A stretch of 64,000 nucleotides of DNA from an uncultured archaeon (GTDB lineage: Archaea > Asgardarchaeota > Lokiarchaeia > Sigyniarchaeales > SOKP01). The notes under the pieces were generated by a model. The model had not been told where the DNA came from, searched no databases, and saw only the letters and a program-made list of their open reading frames with translations. The position numbers were made by a program, and so were the translations under genes. The stretch covers positions 32,001-96,000 of the forward strand of contig CAZWEM010000001.1 of NCBI GenBank assembly GCA_964632315.1, written 5' to 3'. Shown here piece after piece: positions 14,750 to 38,095 of the stretch. How positions within the stretch are numbered: position 1 is the first letter of the stretch; every line of letters begins with the position of its first letter.

Positions 14750-16068
14750 ATGTCAAAACCTAAAGTTGCAATAATTGGAATAGGGATTACACCTTTTAAA
14801 GCAAGATATTTAGACAAAACCTATTTTGAACTCGCTTACGACGCCACAAAATTGACTTTAGATGATGCAAATAAAAATGGAGCGGAGATAAGCCATAAAG
14901 ATTTACAATCAACAGTATATGGGATATATAACGAGTTATTTGAGAGGCAATTCATGCCGGATATCTTTACTAATAGCTATCTGGGAATGAATGATAAACC
15001 AGGTACAAGAGTAGCGACTGGAGGTGCTACCGGAGGTTATACTGTTAGGATGGCTTATGCTGAAGTTGCTTCGGGATTGTCAGATCTATGCTTATGCCTC
15101 GGTTTGGAAAAATGTAATGATTGTTATGATGATCAAACTGGTGCTACAACACCAGAAGTACTTAACGCCATTGCCTATAGCGCGGATATGACGTATATTA
15201 TATAGTACATCTATATGAGCGGAAGAATATCCGATGGGAAAATACTACTTGGATTTACCAAATATCCCCATTGATGGCAGCCTCATCATACGTGTCAATG
15301 GTAAATGCTCATTATGAAGAATTCGGAAATCCTACTGAGGAACAGATGGCATGTGTTAGTGTAAAAAATCATGGAAATGCAAGGTTGAATCCGAAATCAC
15401 AGTCTCCGATGAAGATTACCGTGGAAGACGTCATGAACTCCCGGATAATATGTTATCCCTTCAAGATGTTAGATTGTTGTTTATATTCGGAAGCCTCAGC
15501 TGCTTTAATACTAGCAAGTGAGGAAAAGGTAAAAGAACTTGGTGTTGAAAAACCAATTTGGATTACAGGTGTGGGCGCAGCTAATACAGATTGCTTCATC
15601 GGGAATCGAGAAGATATGGGCCGTCTTTATTCGAATATTTATGCCGCCAAATCTGCGTATAAGATGGCAGGATTAGATTATAATAATATAAAGCAGCAGA
15701 TCGACTTGGCAGAACTACATGATGCGTTTTCGGGACAAGAAGTCATATCCTATGAAGAGTTAGGATTTGTACCTTTTGGTGAGGGAGGTTCATGGATTGA
15801 AAAGACGTTTGAAAAATCGGGAGAAGGACCATGGATAGATGGAGAGTTGCCCTGTTGCCCTTCAGGCGGGCTTATTGGATGTGGCCACGCGGTGGGCGCT
15901 ACAGGCATTATGAGTACTGGAGAAGCAGCTTTACAATTAAGAAGAGATGCCGGAAAGCATCAGGTACAGATCGAAAAAGGGAGGGCAATTTCTCATTCGA
16001 TTGGAGGACCTGGAGCAGCATATGCTGCTATAATTGTAATGGAAAATGAGGAGGGTCTAAAAAAATGA
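14750..16068 (+). CDS. SCP2-type thiolase-family protein interrupted by two micro-introns; predicted join(14750..15196,15225..15240,15272..16068), 419 aa
   Basis: N-half VAIIGIG, RVATGGATGG, LGLEK; C-half VSVKNH.NA..NP, LDCC, ELHDAF, SGGLIGCGHAVGATG; removing 28+31 nt restores the frame and the D-x3-E-x-P-x-G motif of paralogue 36674-38095. Confidence 0.85.
15197..15224 (+). other. Putative BHB-type mRNA intron 1 (28 nt)
   Basis: 8-bp intron stem UUAUAUAG/CUAUAUGA, 5' bulge AUA, central helix ACGU/GCGG (one A.G mismatch), 3' bulge AAG, exon stem CGGAUAU/AUAUCCG; contains in-frame TAG. Confidence 0.75.
15241..15271 (+). other. Putative BHB-type mRNA intron 2 (31 nt)
   Basis: Central helix UGGG/CCCC (one U.C mismatch), bulges AAA and AUU, intron stem AUA/UAU plus UUGG/CCAA; removal gives GGA A|UG AUG. 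Confidence 0.7.
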
Positions 16069-16556
16069 CGGATTTTCAAGATCACCAAATACGTGATAGG
16101 ATCAAAATAGAGTATATGTACACAATGGGCGGGCAATCAAAATTCTTCATTGAATTAATGAAGAATAAAAAGCTTTTGGGGACTAAATGTAAAAAATGTG
16201 GAAAGACATGGATGCCTCCTCGAATTAATTGTTCTGATTGTTACGAACCCGCTGATTGGATTGAACTTAAACAAACGGGAACGATTGAAGTTAGTACAAT
16301 TGTTTGGTACACTACTTCTGCTTTCATTAAAGCCGTGCCTTACGGAATTGGATTCATAAAACTAGATGGAGCAGAAACTGCTTTGTTTCAAGGAATCTTT
16401 TCCGAGAATTTAGTTCCTTCAAAAATAAAGAAAGGAAAAAGGGTCAAAGCGGTATTTAACAAGGAAAGAGAAGGAAAGATGACCGATTTCTTTTTTGTAC
16501 CAGAAGATGAATATGAAAATTGGATTTCAAAACCAGAATTTGAAGGAGGGATGTAA
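16065..16556 (+). CDS. Zn-ribbon/OB-fold (DUF35) thiolase partner
   Basis: CKKC...PPR..CSDC, IKLDGA; ATGA overlap with the thiolase gene. Confidence 0.9.
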   Translation: MTDFQDHQIRDRIKIEYMYTMGGQSKFFIELMKNKKLLGTKCKKCGKTWMPPRINCSDCYEPADWIELKQTGTIEVSTIVWYTTSAFIKAVPYGIGFIKLDGAETALFQGIFSENLVPSKIKKGKRVKAVFNKEREGKMTDFFFVPEDEYENWISKPEFEGGM

Positions 16557-16558
16557 AA

Positions 16559-16924
16559 ATGGCGAAAGCAAAAGAGAAGTTAAATGCTATAGTAGATAAG
16601 ATCAATTCTAATCCTAAGGCTCAAGCTGTTTTTGTAACTAATATCACAGGAAAAGATGTTGATTGGGAGATGTCATTCCAGTTTAATCTTGATAATGAGA
16701 ATCCCTTCTACTTAGAAATTAAAAGCAAGGCTGCTCATATTATAGTGGGGACAAAAAATGATGCTGAAATTGTTATGTCAGGGAATCCTGATGCTATAAT
16801 AAAAATCTGCGAAGGGAAGGGAGATTTTACCCACGCAATATCTCGTGAACATATCACTGTCGAAAAAGGAAAGGTTATGGATGTAATCCGCCTAACGAGA
16901 GCAATTACAATTGTGTTAAAATAA
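16559..16924 (+). CDS. SCP2 sterol-carrier-like protein
   Basis: FQFNL...FYLEI......GT...AEI.M.G...........F..A....ITV..G pattern; operon context. Confidence 0.7.
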   Translation: MAKAKEKLNAIVDKINSNPKAQAVFVTNITGKDVDWEMSFQFNLDNENPFYLEIKSKAAHIIVGTKNDAEIVMSGNPDAIIKICEGKGDFTHAISREHITVEKGKVMDVIRLTRAITIVLK

Positions 16925-32078: not shown

Positions 32079-32576
32079 TTAATCTCCCTCCTTTTCATCT
32101 TCAACTATTCTAAAATATGGAATGTCTGCAACCAAATCACCGACAAGTTCATCATTAAATACTGCTTCGACTCTTTGCCCAATTTTCATCTTACTAGCAT
32201 CAGTTTCATTAACAAAATGCATTGTATAGGTATCAGCTCCATCTAATTTGAATATTGCATAACCATAAGGAAATGGTCGGATTCCTCCTGTTGAGGGATC
32301 AGTAAATGGGTAATTTACAACCGTGAATCCCTCCAATGTTCCTCTTGGAGGTAATTCTACCATATCATCTAGGGTCATCTTCACTAAACACTCTGCACAT
32401 ACAGCTCTAGGGGGAAAATGTACTTTTTTACATTTTGGACATTTACTGCCAAGAATTTTCTTATTTTCTTTTAATTCTTCAAAGAATTTTACCGCAAGTT
32501 TTCCAATTGACCATCTATATGGCAAATTAGTTTTCCATTTAATTTCAAAAATGTCTCCTTTTTTCTTTCTACTCAT
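32079..32576 (-). CDS. Zn-ribbon/OB-fold (DUF35) protein
   Basis: CPKC..VHFPPR..CAEC, KLDGAD. Confidence 0.9.
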   Translation of the reverse strand: MSRKKKGDIFEIKWKTNLPYRWSIGKLAVKFFEELKENKKILGSKCPKCKKVHFPPRAVCAECLVKMTLDDMVELPPRGTLEGFTVVNYPFTDPSTGGIRPFPYGYAIFKLDGADTYTMHFVNETDASKMKIGQRVEAVFNDELVGDLVADIPYFRIVEDEKEGD

Positions 32577-32581
32577 TTATT

Positions 32582-33766
32582 TCACCTCATTGGTTCTTTT
32601 CCTAATATCATTAATTCCGTCCATAAACTTCCACCAAATCCCATAGCAAGTGCTCTTTCAACATCTGGAACTTGACGTTTTTCTCCACGATCCATTATCT
32701 GAGTCGCGGCTTCTGCAACTCTTACCATCGCGGTAGCACCGATAGGATTAGTACTCAAAACGCCTCCCGAAGGATTAACTGGTAATTCTCCACTCATTTG
32801 GGTGATACCTTCATCTAAAAGCTTTCCTCCCTCTCCGGGTTTGCAGAAACCAAGAGCTTCAGTCCAAGAAAGTTCACTCCAAGAAGTCGGTTCATAAATT
32901 TCAGCAACATCTAAGTCATTTATTGGATCTTTTATGCCTGCTTTTTTATATGCTTTCTTTGATGCTATCGTAGCTGTAGGAAGGTCATACATTTTATCAT
33001 CTGTCCCAAATGTATAATAATGTGCAGTTTCCACTGCGTGGAACCATGCCGGATTATCCGTGATCTTTTTAACCTCTGTCTCATTGGCATAAATTAAAGC
33101 ACATGCACCTTCACTCTGTGGGCAACAATCATGTAATCTTAGAGGATAGGAAATTACTTGAGAACTCATCACATAATCAATTGTTATATCTGGCATTTGG
33201 AGATGAGCAAAAGGGTTATTTGCGGCATTACTTCTATTCTTTACAGTCACTTTTGCTGCCTGTTCAGGTGTTATTCCATATTTTGCTGAATACATTCCCG
33301 CCATTAAAGCTAGTGGACCTAGTGCTCCTGCGAGAGAAGGTCTTTCCCAAACTGGGTCAAATGCAGTTATAATCCCAGTCGTTGCTCCACCTTCATTCAA
33401 TTTTTCCCATCCTATTACAAGAACCTTATCATAGATCCCAGAAGCTACATTATGATATCCACAAATTGCTAATGAACTGCCCGTGGTACCCCCAGTTGCC
33501 ACCTTGACTACAGGTTTCAGATATCCTGGAGCAGCGTCAATTCCCGTCCACATCTCAGAAAAGTTTATCCCTTCAAAGTGATCCATATTACCGATTAGAA
33601 TCGCATCGATATCTTTTGGTTCAAGTTGAGCATCATCAAGAGCCATTCTAACGGCTTCATATATCATTTCTGGGATATTTACATCTCTTCTCTTACTTCT
33701 AAATTTGGTTTGCCCTATTCCAACTATTGCAGTTTGATGTTTTGTCATTTTTTTACTCGCCTCCAA
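32582..33766 (-). CDS. Thiolase-family protein (Ltp3-like)
   Basis: GIGQTK..KR.DV, DHFEG, GWEK, AEIYEP.SW.E..W.E.LGF, SGGVLSTNPIGA. Confidence 0.85.
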   Translation of the reverse strand: MEASKKMTKHQTAIVGIGQTKFRSKRRDVNIPEMIYEAVRMALDDAQLEPKDIDAILIGNMDHFEGINFSEMWTGIDAAPGYLKPVVKVATGGTTGSSLAICGYHNVASGIYDKVLVIGWEKLNEGGATTGIITAFDPVWERPSLAGALGPLALMAGMYSAKYGITPEQAAKVTVKNRSNAANNPFAHLQMPDITIDYVMSSQVISYPLRLHDCCPQSEGACALIYANETEVKKITDNPAWFHAVETAHYYTFGTDDKMYDLPTATIASKKAYKKAGIKDPINDLDVAEIYEPTSWSELSWTEALGFCKPGEGGKLLDEGITQMSGELPVNPSGGVLSTNPIGATAMVRVAEAATQIMDRGEKRQVPDVERALAMGFGGSLWTELMILGKEPMR

Positions 33767-34892
33767 AAATTAAAACGCAATTTCCTTGGGAACATATCCC
33801 ATTCATTCCATGTGCCAAACCTATTTTAGCATTATTTACTTGTCGTTTCCCAGCTTTTCCCATGAGTTGCGTGGCTACTTCGGCAACTCTTATTAAACCA
33901 TTTGCCATTGTCGGGTTACTAGATAGCACTCCTCCAGACTTATTTATTGGAAGATTTGATTCAAAGTGATCGTCTATAAACTTTCCTCCTTCTCCTTTTT
34001 TACACAAGCCCAGAGATTCATAGATCATCAGTTCATGAAATGAAAACGCATCATACACTTCAAATATGTCAATTTCTTTTAGGGGATTTTGTATATTCGC
34101 CATTTTATATGCTTCCTTGGCTGCTAATTCCAATCCAACGAGATCAGTCATGTTCCTATGACCTAAGTAATATGCATCTGTACAACTTCCATATCCTTTC
34201 AACCATACTGGAGTGTCTGTAAATTCTTTAGCTTTCGCTTCATTTGTTAGAAGCATTGCTACAGCACCATCTGAAAAAGGCGGTAAATCTAATTCCTTTA
34301 GGGGATATGCCATCATTTTTGAATTAAGGACGTCCTCAATGGAAATTTCTTTCTGCAAATGAGCGTATGGATTGTCACGGGCATATTTTCTATTTTTTAC
34401 AGCAATTTTAGCTGCTTGTTCCTCAGAAATTCCATACTTCTGCATATACATGTTCGCCATCAATCCAGCCGACGAAACTTGATCCAAACCAAGATGTCGT
34501 TGATAGAATGGATCGAATATTGAATTATTTACCAGATACTGGTTTACTTCTGAACATTTGCAATGAGAAACTACAAGAACTGTATCATATGACTCTGATA
34601 AAATTCGCATGGCTCCATATACATAAGCAAACGCCCCATCACCAGAAACGCGAGATTCGCTTTTTCTTACTGACCCTACTGCGTCTTGAATCGCCATGTT
34701 AGCAATTGTTCTGCCATCGTTAAAATCATTAGAACTGGTGATTACACATCCAACATCATCATTAGTTATTCCGAGATCTTCATGAAGCTGGTGAACAACT
34801 TCGAAAACTAGTTCTGAAACGGTTAAATCAATTTTATCTTCTTCATATTTAGTTTGAGCGCAACCAACTATCGCTACTTTATCTTTATCCAT
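33753..34892 (-). CDS. Thiolase-family protein (Ltp4-like)
   Basis: ES.V.GDGAFA, DPFY, PPFSDGA, EVYDAF, NKSGGVLSSNP. Confidence 0.85.
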   Translation of the reverse strand: MDKDKVAIVGCAQTKYEEDKIDLTVSELVFEVVHQLHEDLGITNDDVGCVITSSNDFNDGRTIANMAIQDAVGSVRKSESRVSGDGAFAYVYGAMRILSESYDTVLVVSHCKCSEVNQYLVNNSIFDPFYQRHLGLDQVSSAGLMANMYMQKYGISEEQAAKIAVKNRKYARDNPYAHLQKEISIEDVLNSKMMAYPLKELDLPPFSDGAVAMLLTNEAKAKEFTDTPVWLKGYGSCTDAYYLGHRNMTDLVGLELAAKEAYKMANIQNPLKEIDIFEVYDAFSFHELMIYESLGLCKKGEGGKFIDDHFESNLPINKSGGVLSSNPTMANGLIRVAEVATQLMGKAGKRQVNNAKIGLAHGMNGICSQGNCVLIFGGE

Positions 34893-36069: not shown

Positions 36070-36669
36070 TTAATATGAAAATCCTTCGGGTAAATCTGAT
36101 TCTGGTGTGTTTTCAACTACAAAGGAGAGATCAGTTATTGTGTAAGTTGGATTTTTTGTTCTAAAAATCGGAACTACTCGTTTTCCAATTTCAGGTTCAC
36201 CTACAGACAGATAAGACATTAAAATCGTAACAACGTCATCGAATTCCACATTTATAAATTTAATAGGTTTTGCTAGCATATTAAATGCTCCTGAACGATG
36301 TGTGATGATAAATGAATGTATTTTTGCAGTCTTTCTTGCTTTTTCAGTCATATCTATTACTGTCATTTTTCGTAAACAATCGGGACATGCGATTCTAAAA
36401 GGTTGATAAATTGAACCACGAGTTTCGCATTTTTCATTATCGCACCTCGTTGCCATGAGCTTACCCTTTCCTAAAGATTCAAAGAATATTGCTTCCCCAC
36501 CATATGAATGTATATACGTCATATCTCGAGGATTAGTAACTCCCGCAAGCTTTCCAGTATCTTTATCAAAAATAGGTTGATTTGCTTCTATAATGTGAAA
36601 CTTACCTCTAGGTTTATATCTACCATTTATAACTTCAACAAATCCTTTTTCTTCTTCTGTTTTAGGCAT
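36070..36669 (-). CDS. Zn-ribbon/OB-fold (DUF35-like) thiolase partner
   Basis: YIHSYGGE..FF, RC...C, CPDC, V.P.F; directly after a thiolase gene. Confidence 0.8.
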   Translation of the reverse strand: MPKTEEEKGFVEVINGRYKPRGKFHIIEANQPIFDKDTGKLAGVTNPRDMTYIHSYGGEAIFFESLGKGKLMATRCDNEKCETRGSIYQPFRIACPDCLRKMTVIDMTEKARKTAKIHSFIITHRSGAFNMLAKPIKFINVEFDDVVTILMSYLSVGEPEIGKRVVPIFRTKNPTYTITDLSFVVENTPESDLPEGFSY

Positions 36670-36673
36670 TTTC

Positions 36674-38095
36674 TTAATCCTCCTTTATTAAGTTATTAGG
36701 GTCCATTAAAATAGTACAAGTTACGTGAGAACCTACACCAGCATGACTAATTGCCAATGCTCGTTTAGCTCCTTTAACTTGCAGGCTTGTCCAATCTTTT
36801 GGTTTTTCTCTTCCAAAAGCTTTCCACTTTTCAATTGGCTCGTGAATTTCATCCCAACGGTTCCATATATGGTATCCAATCTCAGCTATTTGCATTAAAC
36901 CAGTTGCTCCAACAGCATGCATGCATCCGATTAATCCACCACTTGGATTACTTGGTAGTTTTCCTGGCTTTTTAGTATTTGGATTAATAACATACGCATC
37001 ACCACTTTCAATATAGTCTCTTCCTTCTCCATAGGGTCTTATTCCAATGTCCTCATAGGTTTGGATATCACTTATCGTAAATGCATCATGTAATTCTACT
37101 AAATCAAGGTCTTCTGTAGGATCTACAACACCAGCCATGTGATATGCATAATATGCTGCTACTCTAGCTGCTAAAAAGCTACTAAAACCTGGATAACGAT
37201 CTCCACCTGGAAATCTTTTACCCAAATCATCATACTGCCCTTTATTTTCATTTGGTAATAACGGTATTTTCATATCACGCCGATCAGCCACTCTTAGTGT
37301 ATGGCTTCCAGCACCAAGATATATTCTTAAAGGTTTGTCAGTTATTTCATAAGCCGTTTTTTCATCGCAAACAATTCCACAAGCAGAACCCACACTCATT
37401 AAACAACAGTCTAATACGCGAAGGGGATGCGCCACGATTGGAGAATCTATAACATCTTGTACCGTTATATCCATCGGTCCATGAGCGTGAGGATTCATTC
37501 TTGCATAACCCCTGTTTTTCACGGCGACTTCTGCCATTGTCTTCCGAAATGATTCTTCTTCCTTGCCAAATACTTTCCAGTATCTTTGTGCCATGACCGC
37601 ATAATATCCTGTATATATATGTCCTAAAGGAGTTTCCCAGTCTTTATCCGCAGCAGCAGAAATAAGATGATTACCTTCATCAGTGGGGACTTCGTCCATC
37701 CGTTCCCAGCCCATCGCCAAAGCGCAATCACTATACCCTGAAGCTACAGCTTTGATCGCTTCCCACATTGCTGATCCTCCAGTAGCACCACCAGTTTTGA
37801 CTCCAATATTTCCTAATGGATCTAAACCAAGTCTATCATGAATTACGGCTTCTCCAAGTAATTGATCTCCGAAATGATCTGCAAAATGACCGTAATAACA
37901 AGTATGAATATATTTCTTTAACTCTGAGGGGGTCATTTTAACAAAGTCAGCCGCAGCAGTAAGTGCATCAATACATAATTCTTCAGTTCTAGTTTCTGGG
38001 AATGCCCTATCAAATTTTGACATCCCTACTGTAGCTAAATATACTGGTCGCATTAATTTGGGGATTTTTAATTGTTTTTCGCTAAATTTAATCAT
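36674..38095 (-). CDS. Thiolase-family protein (archaeal SCP2-type)
   Basis: KTGGATGG, GWERM, VAVKNR, LDCC, ELHDAF, SGGLIGCMHAVGATG. Confidence 0.9.
   Translation of the reverse strand: MIKFSEKQLKIPKLMRPVYLATVGMSKFDRAFPETRTEELCIDALTAAADFVKMTPSELKKYIHTCYYGHFADHFGDQLLGEAVIHDRLGLDPLGNIGVKTGGATGGSAMWEAIKAVASGYSDCALAMGWERMDEVPTDEGNHLISAAADKDWETPLGHIYTGYYAVMAQRYWKVFGKEEESFRKTMAEVAVKNRGYARMNPHAHGPMDITVQDVIDSPIVAHPLRVLDCCLMSVGSACGIVCDEKTAYEITDKPLRIYLGAGSHTLRVADRRDMKIPLLPNENKGQYDDLGKRFPGGDRYPGFSSFLAARVAAYYAYHMAGVVDPTEDLDLVELHDAFTISDIQTYEDIGIRPYGEGRDYIESGDAYVINPNTKKPGKLPSNPSGGLIGCMHAVGATGLMQIAEIGYHIWNRWDEIHEPIEKWKAFGREKPKDWTSLQVKGAKRALAISHAGVGSHVTCTILMDPNNLIKED

What the first reader, a model, noticed from the sequence alone, without database searches (positions are those of the whole stretch)
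15183..15298. Two tandem BHB-type micro-introns and a 16-nt micro-exon in a protein-coding gene
Seen: the thiolase halves lie in different frames. Between them a third frame encodes GAA TAT CCG ATG GG (EYPMG), flanked by two hairpin-forming inserts of 28 and 31 nt. Removing both gives ...YSAD-MTY-EYPMG-MMAASS-Y-VSM..., which aligns without gaps to in-window paralogues ...AAAD-KDW-ETPLG-HIYTGY-Y-AVM... (36674-38095) and ...SIFD-PFY-QRHLG-LDQVSS-A-GLM... (33753-34892). Boundaries derived from protein alignment coincide with those predicted from RNA geometry (cut after the 2nd nt of each 3-nt bulge, 4-nt central helix). The rest of the gene and its operon look intact. Established: archaeal EndA cuts BHB motifs and RtcB ligates; the mRNA case I know is crenarchaeal cbf5. 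Inference: this probable Asgard archaeon splices a multi-intron metabolic mRNA, and such genes would be miscalled as split genes or pseudogenes. This bears on the origin of eukaryotic non-spliceosomal splicing.
Basis: partly seen in the sequence, partly recalled or inferred. Interest (0 to 1): 0.96.

Follow-up and report, generated by a model that had tools for sequence, protein, structure and literature searches.

The report
Two tRNA-type mini-introns split Asgard gene
A thiolase-like gene of a Loki-type (Asgard) archaeon is broken by two roughly 30-base hairpin inserts around a 16-base micro-exon. Their shape and their pattern in about 100 related genes indicate introns cut out of the mRNA by the tRNA-splicing enzymes, which papers I could search report for only one archaeal protein gene (cbf5).

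Summary
The thiolase-like gene at 14750-16068(+) carries inserts of 28 nt (15197-15224) and 31 nt (15241-15271) around a 16-nt micro-exon. Removing them gives a 419-aa frame that reads ...ADMTYEYPMGMMAASS...

About 80 orthologues lack exactly these 59 nt and read the motif contiguously. Seven other assemblies carry both inserts. Other orthologues carry 29-30-nt inserts at five further sites of the same gene.

At all seven sites, a cut after the 2nd nt of each 3-nt bulge, across a 4-nt helix, restores the orthologous reading. All 20 interrupted copies then give a single open frame matching the orthologues (two are cut short by contig ends). dN/dS is about 0.03, the same as for uninterrupted copies. 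Stems show compensatory changes, and synonymous sites in the exon bases that pair in the motif are frozen.

The genome encodes alpha- and beta-type EndA subunits and RtcB. Its aEF-2, TBP and only leuS genes carry similar 30-nt inserts.

The window's two motifs are relaxed: 3 of 4 central pairs each, and no outer helix for intron 2. No RNA data could be obtained, so splicing is inferred.

This scan has noted the same kind of intron before, in this genome and in others.

The parts
14750..15196 (+). Exon 1 of the thiolase-like gene (149 codons, ends ...GCG GAT ATG ACG TAT)
   Evidence: ORF list and translation. Weak Pfam Thiolase_N match, below the family cut-off (E 6e-4). Orthologues continue without interruption.
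15183..15189 (+). BHB 1 outer helix, 5' strand (CGGAUAU), exon 1 bases that pair with micro-exon 15227-15233
   Evidence: MFE and centroid fold. 7 of 7 pairs are kept in all 6 distinct intron-bearing sequences. Synonymous sites here are frozen.
15191..15194 (+). BHB 1 central helix, 5' strand (ACGU), pairs with 15219-15222 (GCGG): 3 pairs plus an A.G mismatch
15195..15197 (+). BHB 1 5' bulge AU^A; the inferred cut is after 15196
   Evidence: A 3-nt bulge in the MFE fold. A cut after nt 2 gives the orthologous junction.
15197..15224 (+). Intron 1 (28 nt): bulge nt, 8-bp stem 15198-15205/15211-15218, loop 15206-15210, central-helix strand 15219-15222, and two bulge nt
   Evidence: Absent from about 80 orthologues. 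Present at 30-35 nt in L022, L053, L064, L118-L121, with variable loop length and one compensatory G-C to A-U change. Unique in the genome.
15223..15225 (+). BHB 1 3' bulge AA^G; the inferred cut is after 15224
15225..15240 (+). 16-nt micro-exon (encodes E Y P M G plus the first base of Met). Almost every base belongs to one of the two motifs: G is a bulge nt, A an unpaired mismatch, AUAUCCG the outer helix of BHB 1, A a spacer, UGGG the central helix of BHB 2, and AA bulge nt.
   Evidence: Sequence, folds, identical in all intron-bearing copies. Orthologues read EYPMG at this place.
15235..15238 (+). BHB 2 central helix, 5' strand (UGGG), pairs with 15266-15269 (CCCC): 3 G-C pairs plus a U.C mismatch
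   Evidence: The homologous introns in L053 (CCCG) and L020 (CCUG) have 4 of 4 pairs in the same register.
15241..15271 (+). Intron 2 (31 nt): inner helix AUA/UAU plus UUGG/CCAA around loop AUUUA, central-helix strand CCCC, bulge AU^U (inferred cut after 15271)
   Evidence: Absent from about 80 orthologues. Present in L022, L053, L064 and L118-L121, and with an unrelated 10-bp stem in L020. Unique in the genome.
15272..16068 (+). Exon 3 (two bases that complete the Met codon, 264 further codons and the stop)
   Evidence: Pfam Thiolase_C_1 1e-24. 88-94% identical to orthologues.
16065..16556 (+). Downstream DUF35/ChsH2-type OB-fold and zinc-ribbon gene, overlapping the thiolase stop by 4 nt (same operon, intact)
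16559..16924 (+). SCP2-like gene, third gene of the operon, intact
   Evidence: weak SCP2 match, just below cut-off

Best explanation

In the transcript, exon bases pair with intron bases. Each splice site then lies in a 3-nt bulge, with the two bulges on opposite strands of a 4-position central helix. The heteromeric (alpha-beta)2 splicing endonuclease EndA cuts after the 2nd nucleotide of each bulge. RtcB joins exon 1, the 16-nt micro-exon and exon 3, and probably circularises the 28- and 31-nt introns. Only the spliced mRNA encodes the 419-aa thiolase-like protein. The unspliced mRNA stops after 151 codons.

Shown here:
- the inserts, their geometry and their exact absence from orthologues;
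- their conservation and covariation;
- purifying selection on interrupted copies;
- the presence of the enzyme genes.

Inferred: that cleavage and ligation actually occur, and that EndA and RtcB are the agents.
For: 1. Exact indels. About 80 orthologues (88-94% aa identity) lack precisely the 28+31 nt and read ADMTYEYPMGMMAA contiguously.

2. Recurrence. 20 orthologous sequences carry 28-35-nt inserts at seven sites of this gene, up to four in one copy. After removal at BHB-defined cuts, all 20 give one open frame spanning the held sequence: 413-420 aa in 18 copies, shorter in the two cut off by a contig end (L022, L107). None has any other lesion.

3. Geometry. Among 13 boundary shifts tested per instance, a 4-of-4 central helix occurs at a single shift at five of the seven sites, and also in the L053 and L020 copies of site C. 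At site B and the remaining site C copies the best is 3 of 4, together with a contiguous inner helix. In every case that shift is the one that restores the orthologous reading.

4. Structure is conserved rather than sequence. At site D, 91% of cells are paired against 19-46% with slid partners. Four pairs change on both sides, and the covariation score exceeds all 500 shuffles. At sites B and C, 93% of cells are paired against 28-57% when slid. The site C stem in L020 is entirely different but still pairs.

5. Selection. dN/dS is 0.026 between the window and L064 or L053, which share both introns at dS above 2.5. The median is 0.032 for intron-bearing pairs and 0.039 for intronless pairs.

6. 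Frozen exon bases. Among codons with the same amino acid in the BHB region, 37 of 39 are identical in the intron-bearing trio, against 524 of 1082 in the rest of the gene.

7. Machinery. The genome has two EndA genes. One is alpha-like with Tyr/His/Lys kept, and aligns without gaps to the A. pernix catalytic subunit through the loop region. The other is beta-like with the catalytic His replaced. There is one RtcB. PMC5829648 reports the (alpha-beta)2 type with the L1 loop for Asgard archaea.

8. Same genome. 30-nt BHB inserts carrying stop codons split aEF-2, TBP and the only leuS, and Pfam profile coordinates continue across each.

9. The cut rule (between the 2nd and 3rd bulge residues) and the use of relaxed motifs by heteromeric EndA are documented for cbf5 (PMC2738675).
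Against: No RNA evidence was obtained.

Both window motifs deviate from the canonical BHB. Each central helix has one mismatch, the 3' site of intron 1 sits in a 2x5 internal loop in the MFE fold, and intron 2 lacks an outer helix and folds no better than shuffles. For intron 2 an alternative register, one base off, is near-isoenergetic; it would break the frame.

My generic genome scan (BHB plus ORF merging) showed no net excess over decoy geometries, so I could not count such introns independently.
Confidence: 0.88

Rival explanations
1. The gene is a pseudogene or a decaying copy, and the inserts are junk insertions that destroyed it.
For: Unspliced, the frame stops after 151 codons and the three pieces lie in three frames. 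Standard gene callers would report fragments.
Against: All 20 interrupted orthologues have no lesion other than the inserts, and excising them leaves a single open frame, 413-420 aa wherever the contig holds the whole gene. dN/dS is about 0.03, equal to intact copies, across lineages with saturated dS. The insert structure and the paired exon bases are themselves conserved. There is no second close copy in this genome. The only leuS gene carries the same kind of insert.
Confidence: 0.03
2. The inserts stay in the mRNA and are skipped by the ribosome, as in translational bypassing (phage T4 gene 60, or the 'byp' elements of yeast mitochondria), or are otherwise recoded.
For: The size range (about 30 nt) and hairpin content resemble bypass elements. 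Many of the 30-nt inserts keep the frame and carry one stop.
Against: Bypassing needs matching take-off and landing codons. Here the codon before insert 1 is TAT and the last codon of the insert is GAA, and insert 2 lies in phase 1 with no matching pair (by inspection). Seven independent sites all obey BHB geometry, including pairing of exon bases with intron ends, which bypassing does not require. Insert lengths of 28, 29, 31, 34 and 35 nt occur in all three phases.
Confidence: 0.03
3. It is a true split gene: the N-terminal (151 aa) and C-terminal (265 aa, TTG start at 15271) pieces are made separately and assemble, and the inserts are spacers.
For: Two ORFs of suitable size exist. Thiolase N and C domains can in principle associate.
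Against: The micro-exon residues EYPMG, invariant in orthologues, would be lost. The same logic would need five pieces in L020, which has four inserts. There is no ribosome-binding signal in the 31-nt insert. The break points differ between species and fall inside conserved motifs rather than at the domain border.
Confidence: 0.03
4. The inserts are an assembly or sequencing artefact, or copies of a small repeated mobile element (MITE-like).
For: This is a MAG with 8.6% estimated contamination. Short hairpins can be assembly errors.
Against: The same two inserts occur, with substitutions and different loop lengths, in seven other sequences from independent assemblies and metagenomes. Neither insert has any other copy in the 4.45-Mb genome.
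Confidence: 0.01

Closest known systems
BHB intron of the cbf5 (pseudouridine synthase) pre-mRNA in Crenarchaeota (Desulfurococcales, Sulfolobales): Watanabe 2002, Yoshinari 2006, Yokobori 2009 (PMC2738675)
   Same: A short intron inside a protein-coding frame. The BHB-like motif is often relaxed, with predicted cuts between the 2nd and 3rd bulge residues. The host has a hetero-oligomeric EndA. Presence across related species is patchy, implying gain and loss.
   Different: The phylum differs (Promethearchaeota, i.e. Asgard) and so does the gene (a thiolase-like metabolic gene). There are two introns 16 nt apart with a micro-exon, and seven alternative sites in one gene across a genus, against one site in cbf5. 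For cbf5, spliced cDNA was sequenced; here splicing is inferred.
BHB introns of archaeal tRNA genes, including the heavily interrupted, multi-intron tRNA genes of Asgard archaea (bioRxiv 10.64898/2026.10.13.758758)
   Same: The motif, the cut rule, the size range, multiple introns per gene, and repeated gains at sites that can fold into a BHB. ARAGORN finds only 30 tRNA genes in this 99%-complete genome, 19 of them with introns.
   Different: The substrate is an mRNA, so the helices are built from codons and the exon bases are under double constraint. Splicing decides whether a protein is made at all.
Non-spliceosomal mRNA splicing in eukaryotes (HAC1/XBP1 by Ire1 plus tRNA ligase/RtcB) - from general knowledge
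   Same: A short intron is removed from an mRNA by a protein endonuclease at stem-loop sites and sealed by an RNA ligase (RtcB in metazoa). The intron causes a frame change.
   Different: The endonuclease (Ire1) and the site motif differ. That event is a single regulated one, whereas this looks like constitutive repair of interrupted genes.
Archaeal acetoacetyl-CoA thiolase of the thiolase/HMGCS/DUF35 complex (PDB 6esq/6et9, 7yvy) and SCP2-type thiolases
   Same: These are the best solved relatives of the encoded protein (E 3e-45). The gene is followed by a DUF35 gene, and the GH(P/A)VGATG motif is kept.
   Different: The nucleophilic Cys is Gly in this orthologue group (AGGATGG versus AACASGG), so classical thiolase chemistry is unlikely.

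Membership tests
Archaeal bulge-helix-bulge (BHB) intron | Two 3-nt bulges on opposite strands, separated by a 4-bp central helix | tested here: met
   Met in a relaxed form. Both window introns have 3-nt bulges and a central helix of 3 standard pairs plus one mismatch. Five other sites in orthologues, and the site C copies in L053 and L020, have 4 of 4 pairs.
Archaeal bulge-helix-bulge (BHB) intron | A cut after the 2nd nt of each bulge yields the functional mature sequence | tested here: met
   These cuts, and among the shifts compatible with the geometry only these, reproduce the reading of about 80 intronless orthologues at all seven sites. The rule is cited from PMC2738675.
Archaeal bulge-helix-bulge (BHB) intron | Flanking helices on both sides (canonical hBHBh') | tested here: inconclusive
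   Intron 1 has a 7-bp outer and an 8-bp inner helix. Intron 2 has an inner helix but no outer helix (0 contiguous pairs, 3 of 8 in total), so it is a relaxed motif.
Archaeal bulge-helix-bulge (BHB) intron | The host encodes the splicing endonuclease EndA and the ligase RtcB | tested here: met
   PF01974 hits twice: L112 is alpha-like and L113 is beta-like. PF01139 hits once.
Archaeal bulge-helix-bulge (BHB) intron | The intron is actually excised and the exons ligated in RNA | not testable with these tools
cbf5-type archaeal pre-mRNA intron | It lies inside a protein-coding frame, and removal is needed to restore the frame | tested here: met
cbf5-type archaeal pre-mRNA intron | The host gene is cbf5 and the host lineage is Crenarchaeota | tested here: not met
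   The gene is thiolase-like and the organism is a Promethearchaeota archaeon. It works like the cbf5 intron but is not that intron.
Translational bypass element (T4 gene 60 / mitochondrial byps) | Matching take-off and landing codons flank the skipped segment | tested here: not met
   TAT versus GAA at insert 1. Insert 2 is in phase 1 with no matching codon pair (by inspection).
Small repeated mobile element (MITE-like) | Many similar copies in the genome | tested here: not met
   blastn-short of both inserts against the 4.45-Mb genome finds only the inserts themselves; all other hits are 17 nt or shorter.
Thiolase superfamily (Pfam Thiolase_N / Thiolase_C_1) | Domain matches and the catalytic nucleophile Cys | tested here: inconclusive
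   The domains match, N weakly and C at 1e-24. The best PDB relatives are archaeal acetoacetyl-CoA thiolases. The nucleophile Cys is Gly in the aligned position.

The most novel reading that the evidence does not exclude
Loki-type Asgard archaea carry a population of standard-sized (about 30 nt) BHB micro-introns that have colonised many protein-coding genes. These include essential ones (leuS, aEF-2, TBP) and multi-intron genes with micro-exons. Insertion hot spots lie in the most conserved motifs, and gain and precise loss are frequent within a genus. On this reading, obligatory protein-enzyme-catalysed mRNA splicing is a routine step of gene expression in the closest prokaryotic relatives of eukaryotes.
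Probability: 0.6. Interest if true: 0.95.

Novelty: new variant of a known kind. Interest (0 to 1): 0.86.

Why it matters
In the papers I could search, BHB splicing of a protein-coding mRNA in archaea is documented only for cbf5 of Crenarchaeota. Here an Asgard archaeon has a metabolic gene with two such introns and a 16-nt micro-exon. The same gene shows seven intron positions across one genus, all under selection.

If RNA data confirm splicing, four things follow:
- Interrupted genes in Asgard MAGs are being mis-called as pseudogenes or fragments, which distorts metabolic reconstructions.
- Exon-intron gene structure with micro-exons, maintained by a protein endonuclease and RtcB, exists in the closest prokaryotic relatives of eukaryotes.
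- The polymorphic sites give a natural system for studying how BHB introns are gained and lost. A recent tRNA study left that question open.
- Expression of such genes depends on EndA and RtcB, which offers a possible layer of regulation.

Tried and rejected
1. Genome-wide census by BHB geometry plus ORF merging, with and without a codon-usage filter and in several stringencies. The counts never exceeded decoy geometries with the 3' partner slid by 1-4 nt, because co-directional gene boundaries and overlapping spurious ORFs dominate. The scan also missed this very locus, because of the mismatched central helices and the micro-exon. It did yield aEF-2, TBP and leuS as individual cases, which I then verified through Pfam. 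It gives no estimate of the total.

3. An exact search for the doubly spliced junction in metagenome contigs gave 0 hits.

4. A search of 5.8 billion proteins with exon 3 found no full-length protein above 92% identity that could be a translated spliced transcript.

5. The in-frame TAGs inside thiolase matches in other families of the order (L028, L031) turned out to be the thiolase stop followed in frame by the DUF35 gene, not introns.

6. Repeat or MITE reading: rejected.

7. Bypassing, split-gene, pseudogene and artefact readings: see the rival explanations.

8. Within the lineage that carries introns B and C there is almost no covariation, only one compensatory pair. The argument there rests on conservation against a background of saturated synonymous change, not on covariation.

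Full report
**The locus**

The window (G000:C1:32001-96000, GC 33%) belongs to a 4.45-Mb MAG, 99.5% complete with 8.6% contamination. Orthologous contigs are labelled Promethearchaeota or Promethearchaeia, the Loki-type Asgard archaea.

At 14750-16068(+) a thiolase-like gene is read in three frames. Exon 1 is 14750-15196. A 28-nt insert follows at 15197-15224, then a 16-nt piece GAATATCCGATGGGAA at 15225-15240, then a 31-nt insert at 15241-15271. Exon 3 is 15272-16068. Joining the three pieces gives 1260 nt or 419 aa without a stop, reading ...AYSADMTYEYPMGMMAASSYVSM.... This stretch aligns without gaps to three paralogues in the window.

The gene overlaps by 4 nt an intact DUF35/ChsH2-type gene, and an SCP2-like gene follows.

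**Comparative test**

A six-frame search of 40 related genomes and a scan of GTDB species genomes gave about 100 orthologous loci at 84-94% amino-acid identity. About 80 of them lack exactly the 59 nt and read ADMTYEYPMGMMAA contiguously.

Three genome assemblies (L022, L053, L064) and four JGI metagenome contigs (L118-L121) carry both inserts at the same two places. These copies have substitutions and loop lengths of 28-35 nt. That excludes an assembly artefact.

Other orthologues carry 29-30-nt inserts at five further sites of the same gene. I call the seven sites A1, A2, B, C, D, E0 and E, where B and C are the window's sites. One copy (L020) has four inserts.

After excision at the cuts defined below, all 20 interrupted sequences give one open frame with no other lesion. 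The frame is 413-420 aa in the 18 copies held whole. It is shorter in L022 and L107, which are cut off by a contig end.

**Geometry**

In a canonical BHB, each strand runs 5' to 3' as helix, 4-nt central helix, 3-nt bulge, helix. EndA cuts between the 2nd and 3rd bulge residues (PMC2738675).

For every instance I scored 13 boundary shifts. A 4-of-4 central helix occurred at one shift only for A1, A2, D, E0 and E, and for the L053 and L020 copies of C. For B and the other C copies the best was 3 of 4, together with a contiguous inner helix. In every case that shift reproduces the orthologous reading.

Site E is a textbook hBHBh'. It has a 5-bp outer helix, CUGG:CCAG as the central helix, and bulges AC^A and UC^A.

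Most introns are 30 nt: one bulge nt, a stem and loop of 23 nt, four central-helix nt, and two bulge nt.

**The window's own motifs**

BHB 1 is both the MFE and the centroid fold (-15.9 kcal/mol, z = -2.8). Its parts are:
- outer helix CGGAUAU:AUAUCCG (7 bp, exon 1 with the micro-exon);
- central helix ACGU:GCGG (3 pairs plus A.G);
- bulges AU^A and AA^G;
- an 8-bp inner stem.

BHB 2 has the central helix UGGG:CCCC (3 G-C pairs plus U.C) and bulges AA^A and AU^U. Its inner helix is interrupted, it has no outer helix, and its fold is not better than shuffles. A register one base off is nearly as stable. The L053 and L020 homologues have 4 of 4 pairs in the protein-compatible register, which fixes the register.

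Fourteen of the 16 micro-exon bases belong to one motif or the other; the remaining two are an unpaired mismatch and a spacer. Both window motifs are relaxed BHBs, the kind that heteromeric EndA processes in cbf5.

**Selection**

- dN/dS is 0.026 between the window and L064 or L053, which share both introns although dS exceeds 2.5.
- The median is 0.032 for intron-bearing pairs and 0.039 for intronless pairs.
- In the intron-bearing trio, 37 of 39 same-amino-acid codons in the BHB region are identical, against 524 of 1082 elsewhere. Intronless copies vary freely at these third positions. This points to selection on the RNA fold that includes exon bases.
- At site D, 91% of cells pair (19-46% with slid partners). 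Four pairs change on both sides, and the covariation score exceeds all 500 shuffles.
- At B and C, 93% of cells pair (28-57% when slid), but with only one compensatory pair.
- The site C stem in L020 is unrelated in sequence yet forms 10 bp.

**Distribution**

On an ML gene tree the intron states are patchy. B+C occurs in three separated branches, A2+D in two, and E in a clade with intronless members. Intron sequences at one site are homologous across these branches. This favours old introns with repeated precise loss, or transfer by recombination. The tree is a gene tree with a midpoint root, so no order of events is claimed.

A1 and A2 lie 3 nt apart, and E0 and E lie 5 nt apart. In both pairs the intron sequences are unrelated, which suggests hot spots.

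**Machinery and genome context**

The genome has two EndA genes:
- L112 keeps the Tyr/His/Lys catalytic residues and is most similar to the crenarchaeal catalytic alpha subunits (A. pernix 3p1z_B). It aligns without gaps through the loop region.
- L113 has the His replaced and looks like a structural beta subunit.

There is one RtcB. PMC5829648 reports the (alpha-beta)2 type with the L1 loop for Asgard archaea. ARAGORN finds only 30 tRNA genes, 19 of them with introns. That agrees with the heavy interruption of Asgard tRNA genes reported in a 2026 preprint.

My genome scan picked up 30-nt BHB inserts with stop codons in aEF-2, TBP and leuS. Pfam profile coordinates continue across each insert: GTP_EFTU 3-37 then 49-187, tRNA-synt_1g 5-46 then 48-145, and a split second TBP repeat. 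leuS is single-copy, so the cell must remove such inserts.

Notes from other agents in this scan list further cases in this genome (histone, E2, GAPDH, fwdB, acs) and in other genomes. One note reports an RNA-derived contig that lacks the intron. I tested only leuS myself.

**Rivals**

- Pseudogene: contradicted.
- Artefact or repeat: contradicted.
- Translational bypassing: there are no matching take-off and landing codons, and bypassing would not explain pairing between exon and intron.
- Two-piece split gene: this loses the invariant EYPMG and cannot explain four inserts in L020.

**Limits**

There are no RNA data. My generic census failed against decoy controls, so I cannot say how many genes are affected.

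**Literature**

Six full-text searches found only cbf5 as a documented archaeal protein-coding BHB intron, and a 2025 structural paper still cites only cbf5. The searchable library lacks most subscription journals.

**Verdict**

This is a new variant of a known kind. The mechanism is that of cbf5 and tRNA introns. What is new is the lineage, the tandem introns with a micro-exon, and the density and polymorphism of intron sites in one gene.

Noticed in passing
L115:2083-2112 (-) = G000:C25:29359-29388; L116:380-409 (+) = G000:C18:19083-19112; L117:2542-2571 (-) = G000:C41:26254-26283: 30-nt BHB inserts, each with a stop codon, split aEF-2 (before DEEQERGITI), TBP (inside the ITIQNIVAS motif at the start of repeat 2) and the only leuS (inside YPMGYD|SFGLP) of the same genome. 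Pfam profile coordinates continue across each insert.
   Followed up: partly
window 14990-15030 (motif ...RVATGGATGGY...) and L005:1036-2292: This orthologue group has Gly where archaeal acetoacetyl-CoA thiolases (PDB 7yvy, 6esq) have the nucleophilic Cys, and Ser in the C-terminal C-I-G-G motif. Even so it evolves at dN/dS of about 0.03. It is probably not a classical thiolase. It may be a non-catalytic partner or an Ltp2-like enzyme that works with the DUF35 protein.
   Followed up: partly
orthologue alignment: sites A1 vs A2 and E0 vs E: Two pairs of independent intron sites lie 3 nt and 5 nt apart with unrelated intron sequences. All seven sites fall in highly conserved peptide motifs (CYDEQTG, MTYEYPMG, EQMAYVS, HDAFSGQE). 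The aEF-2, TBP and leuS introns also fall in conserved motifs. This suggests insertion or retention hot spots at conserved sequence.
   Followed up: no
whole genome G000: ARAGORN finds only 30 tRNA genes in a 99.5%-complete genome, 19 of them with an intron. Some 'introns' of about 1.2-1.3 kb are probably miscalls. This suggests that many tRNA genes are too interrupted to be detected.
   Followed up: no
L070:479-1738 and L070:2796-4085: One contig carries two tandem copies of the orthologue, one intronless and one with intron E. The contig is deposited under a bacterial MAG name (Deferrimicrobium), and another orthologue under Mcinerneyibacteriota. These are probably mis-binned Loki contigs.
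   Followed up: no
window 32079-34892 and 36070-38095 (-): Two further clusters of thiolase-like genes with DUF35 genes lie in the same window, all uninterrupted. There are at least eight thiolase-like paralogues in the genome.
   Followed up: no
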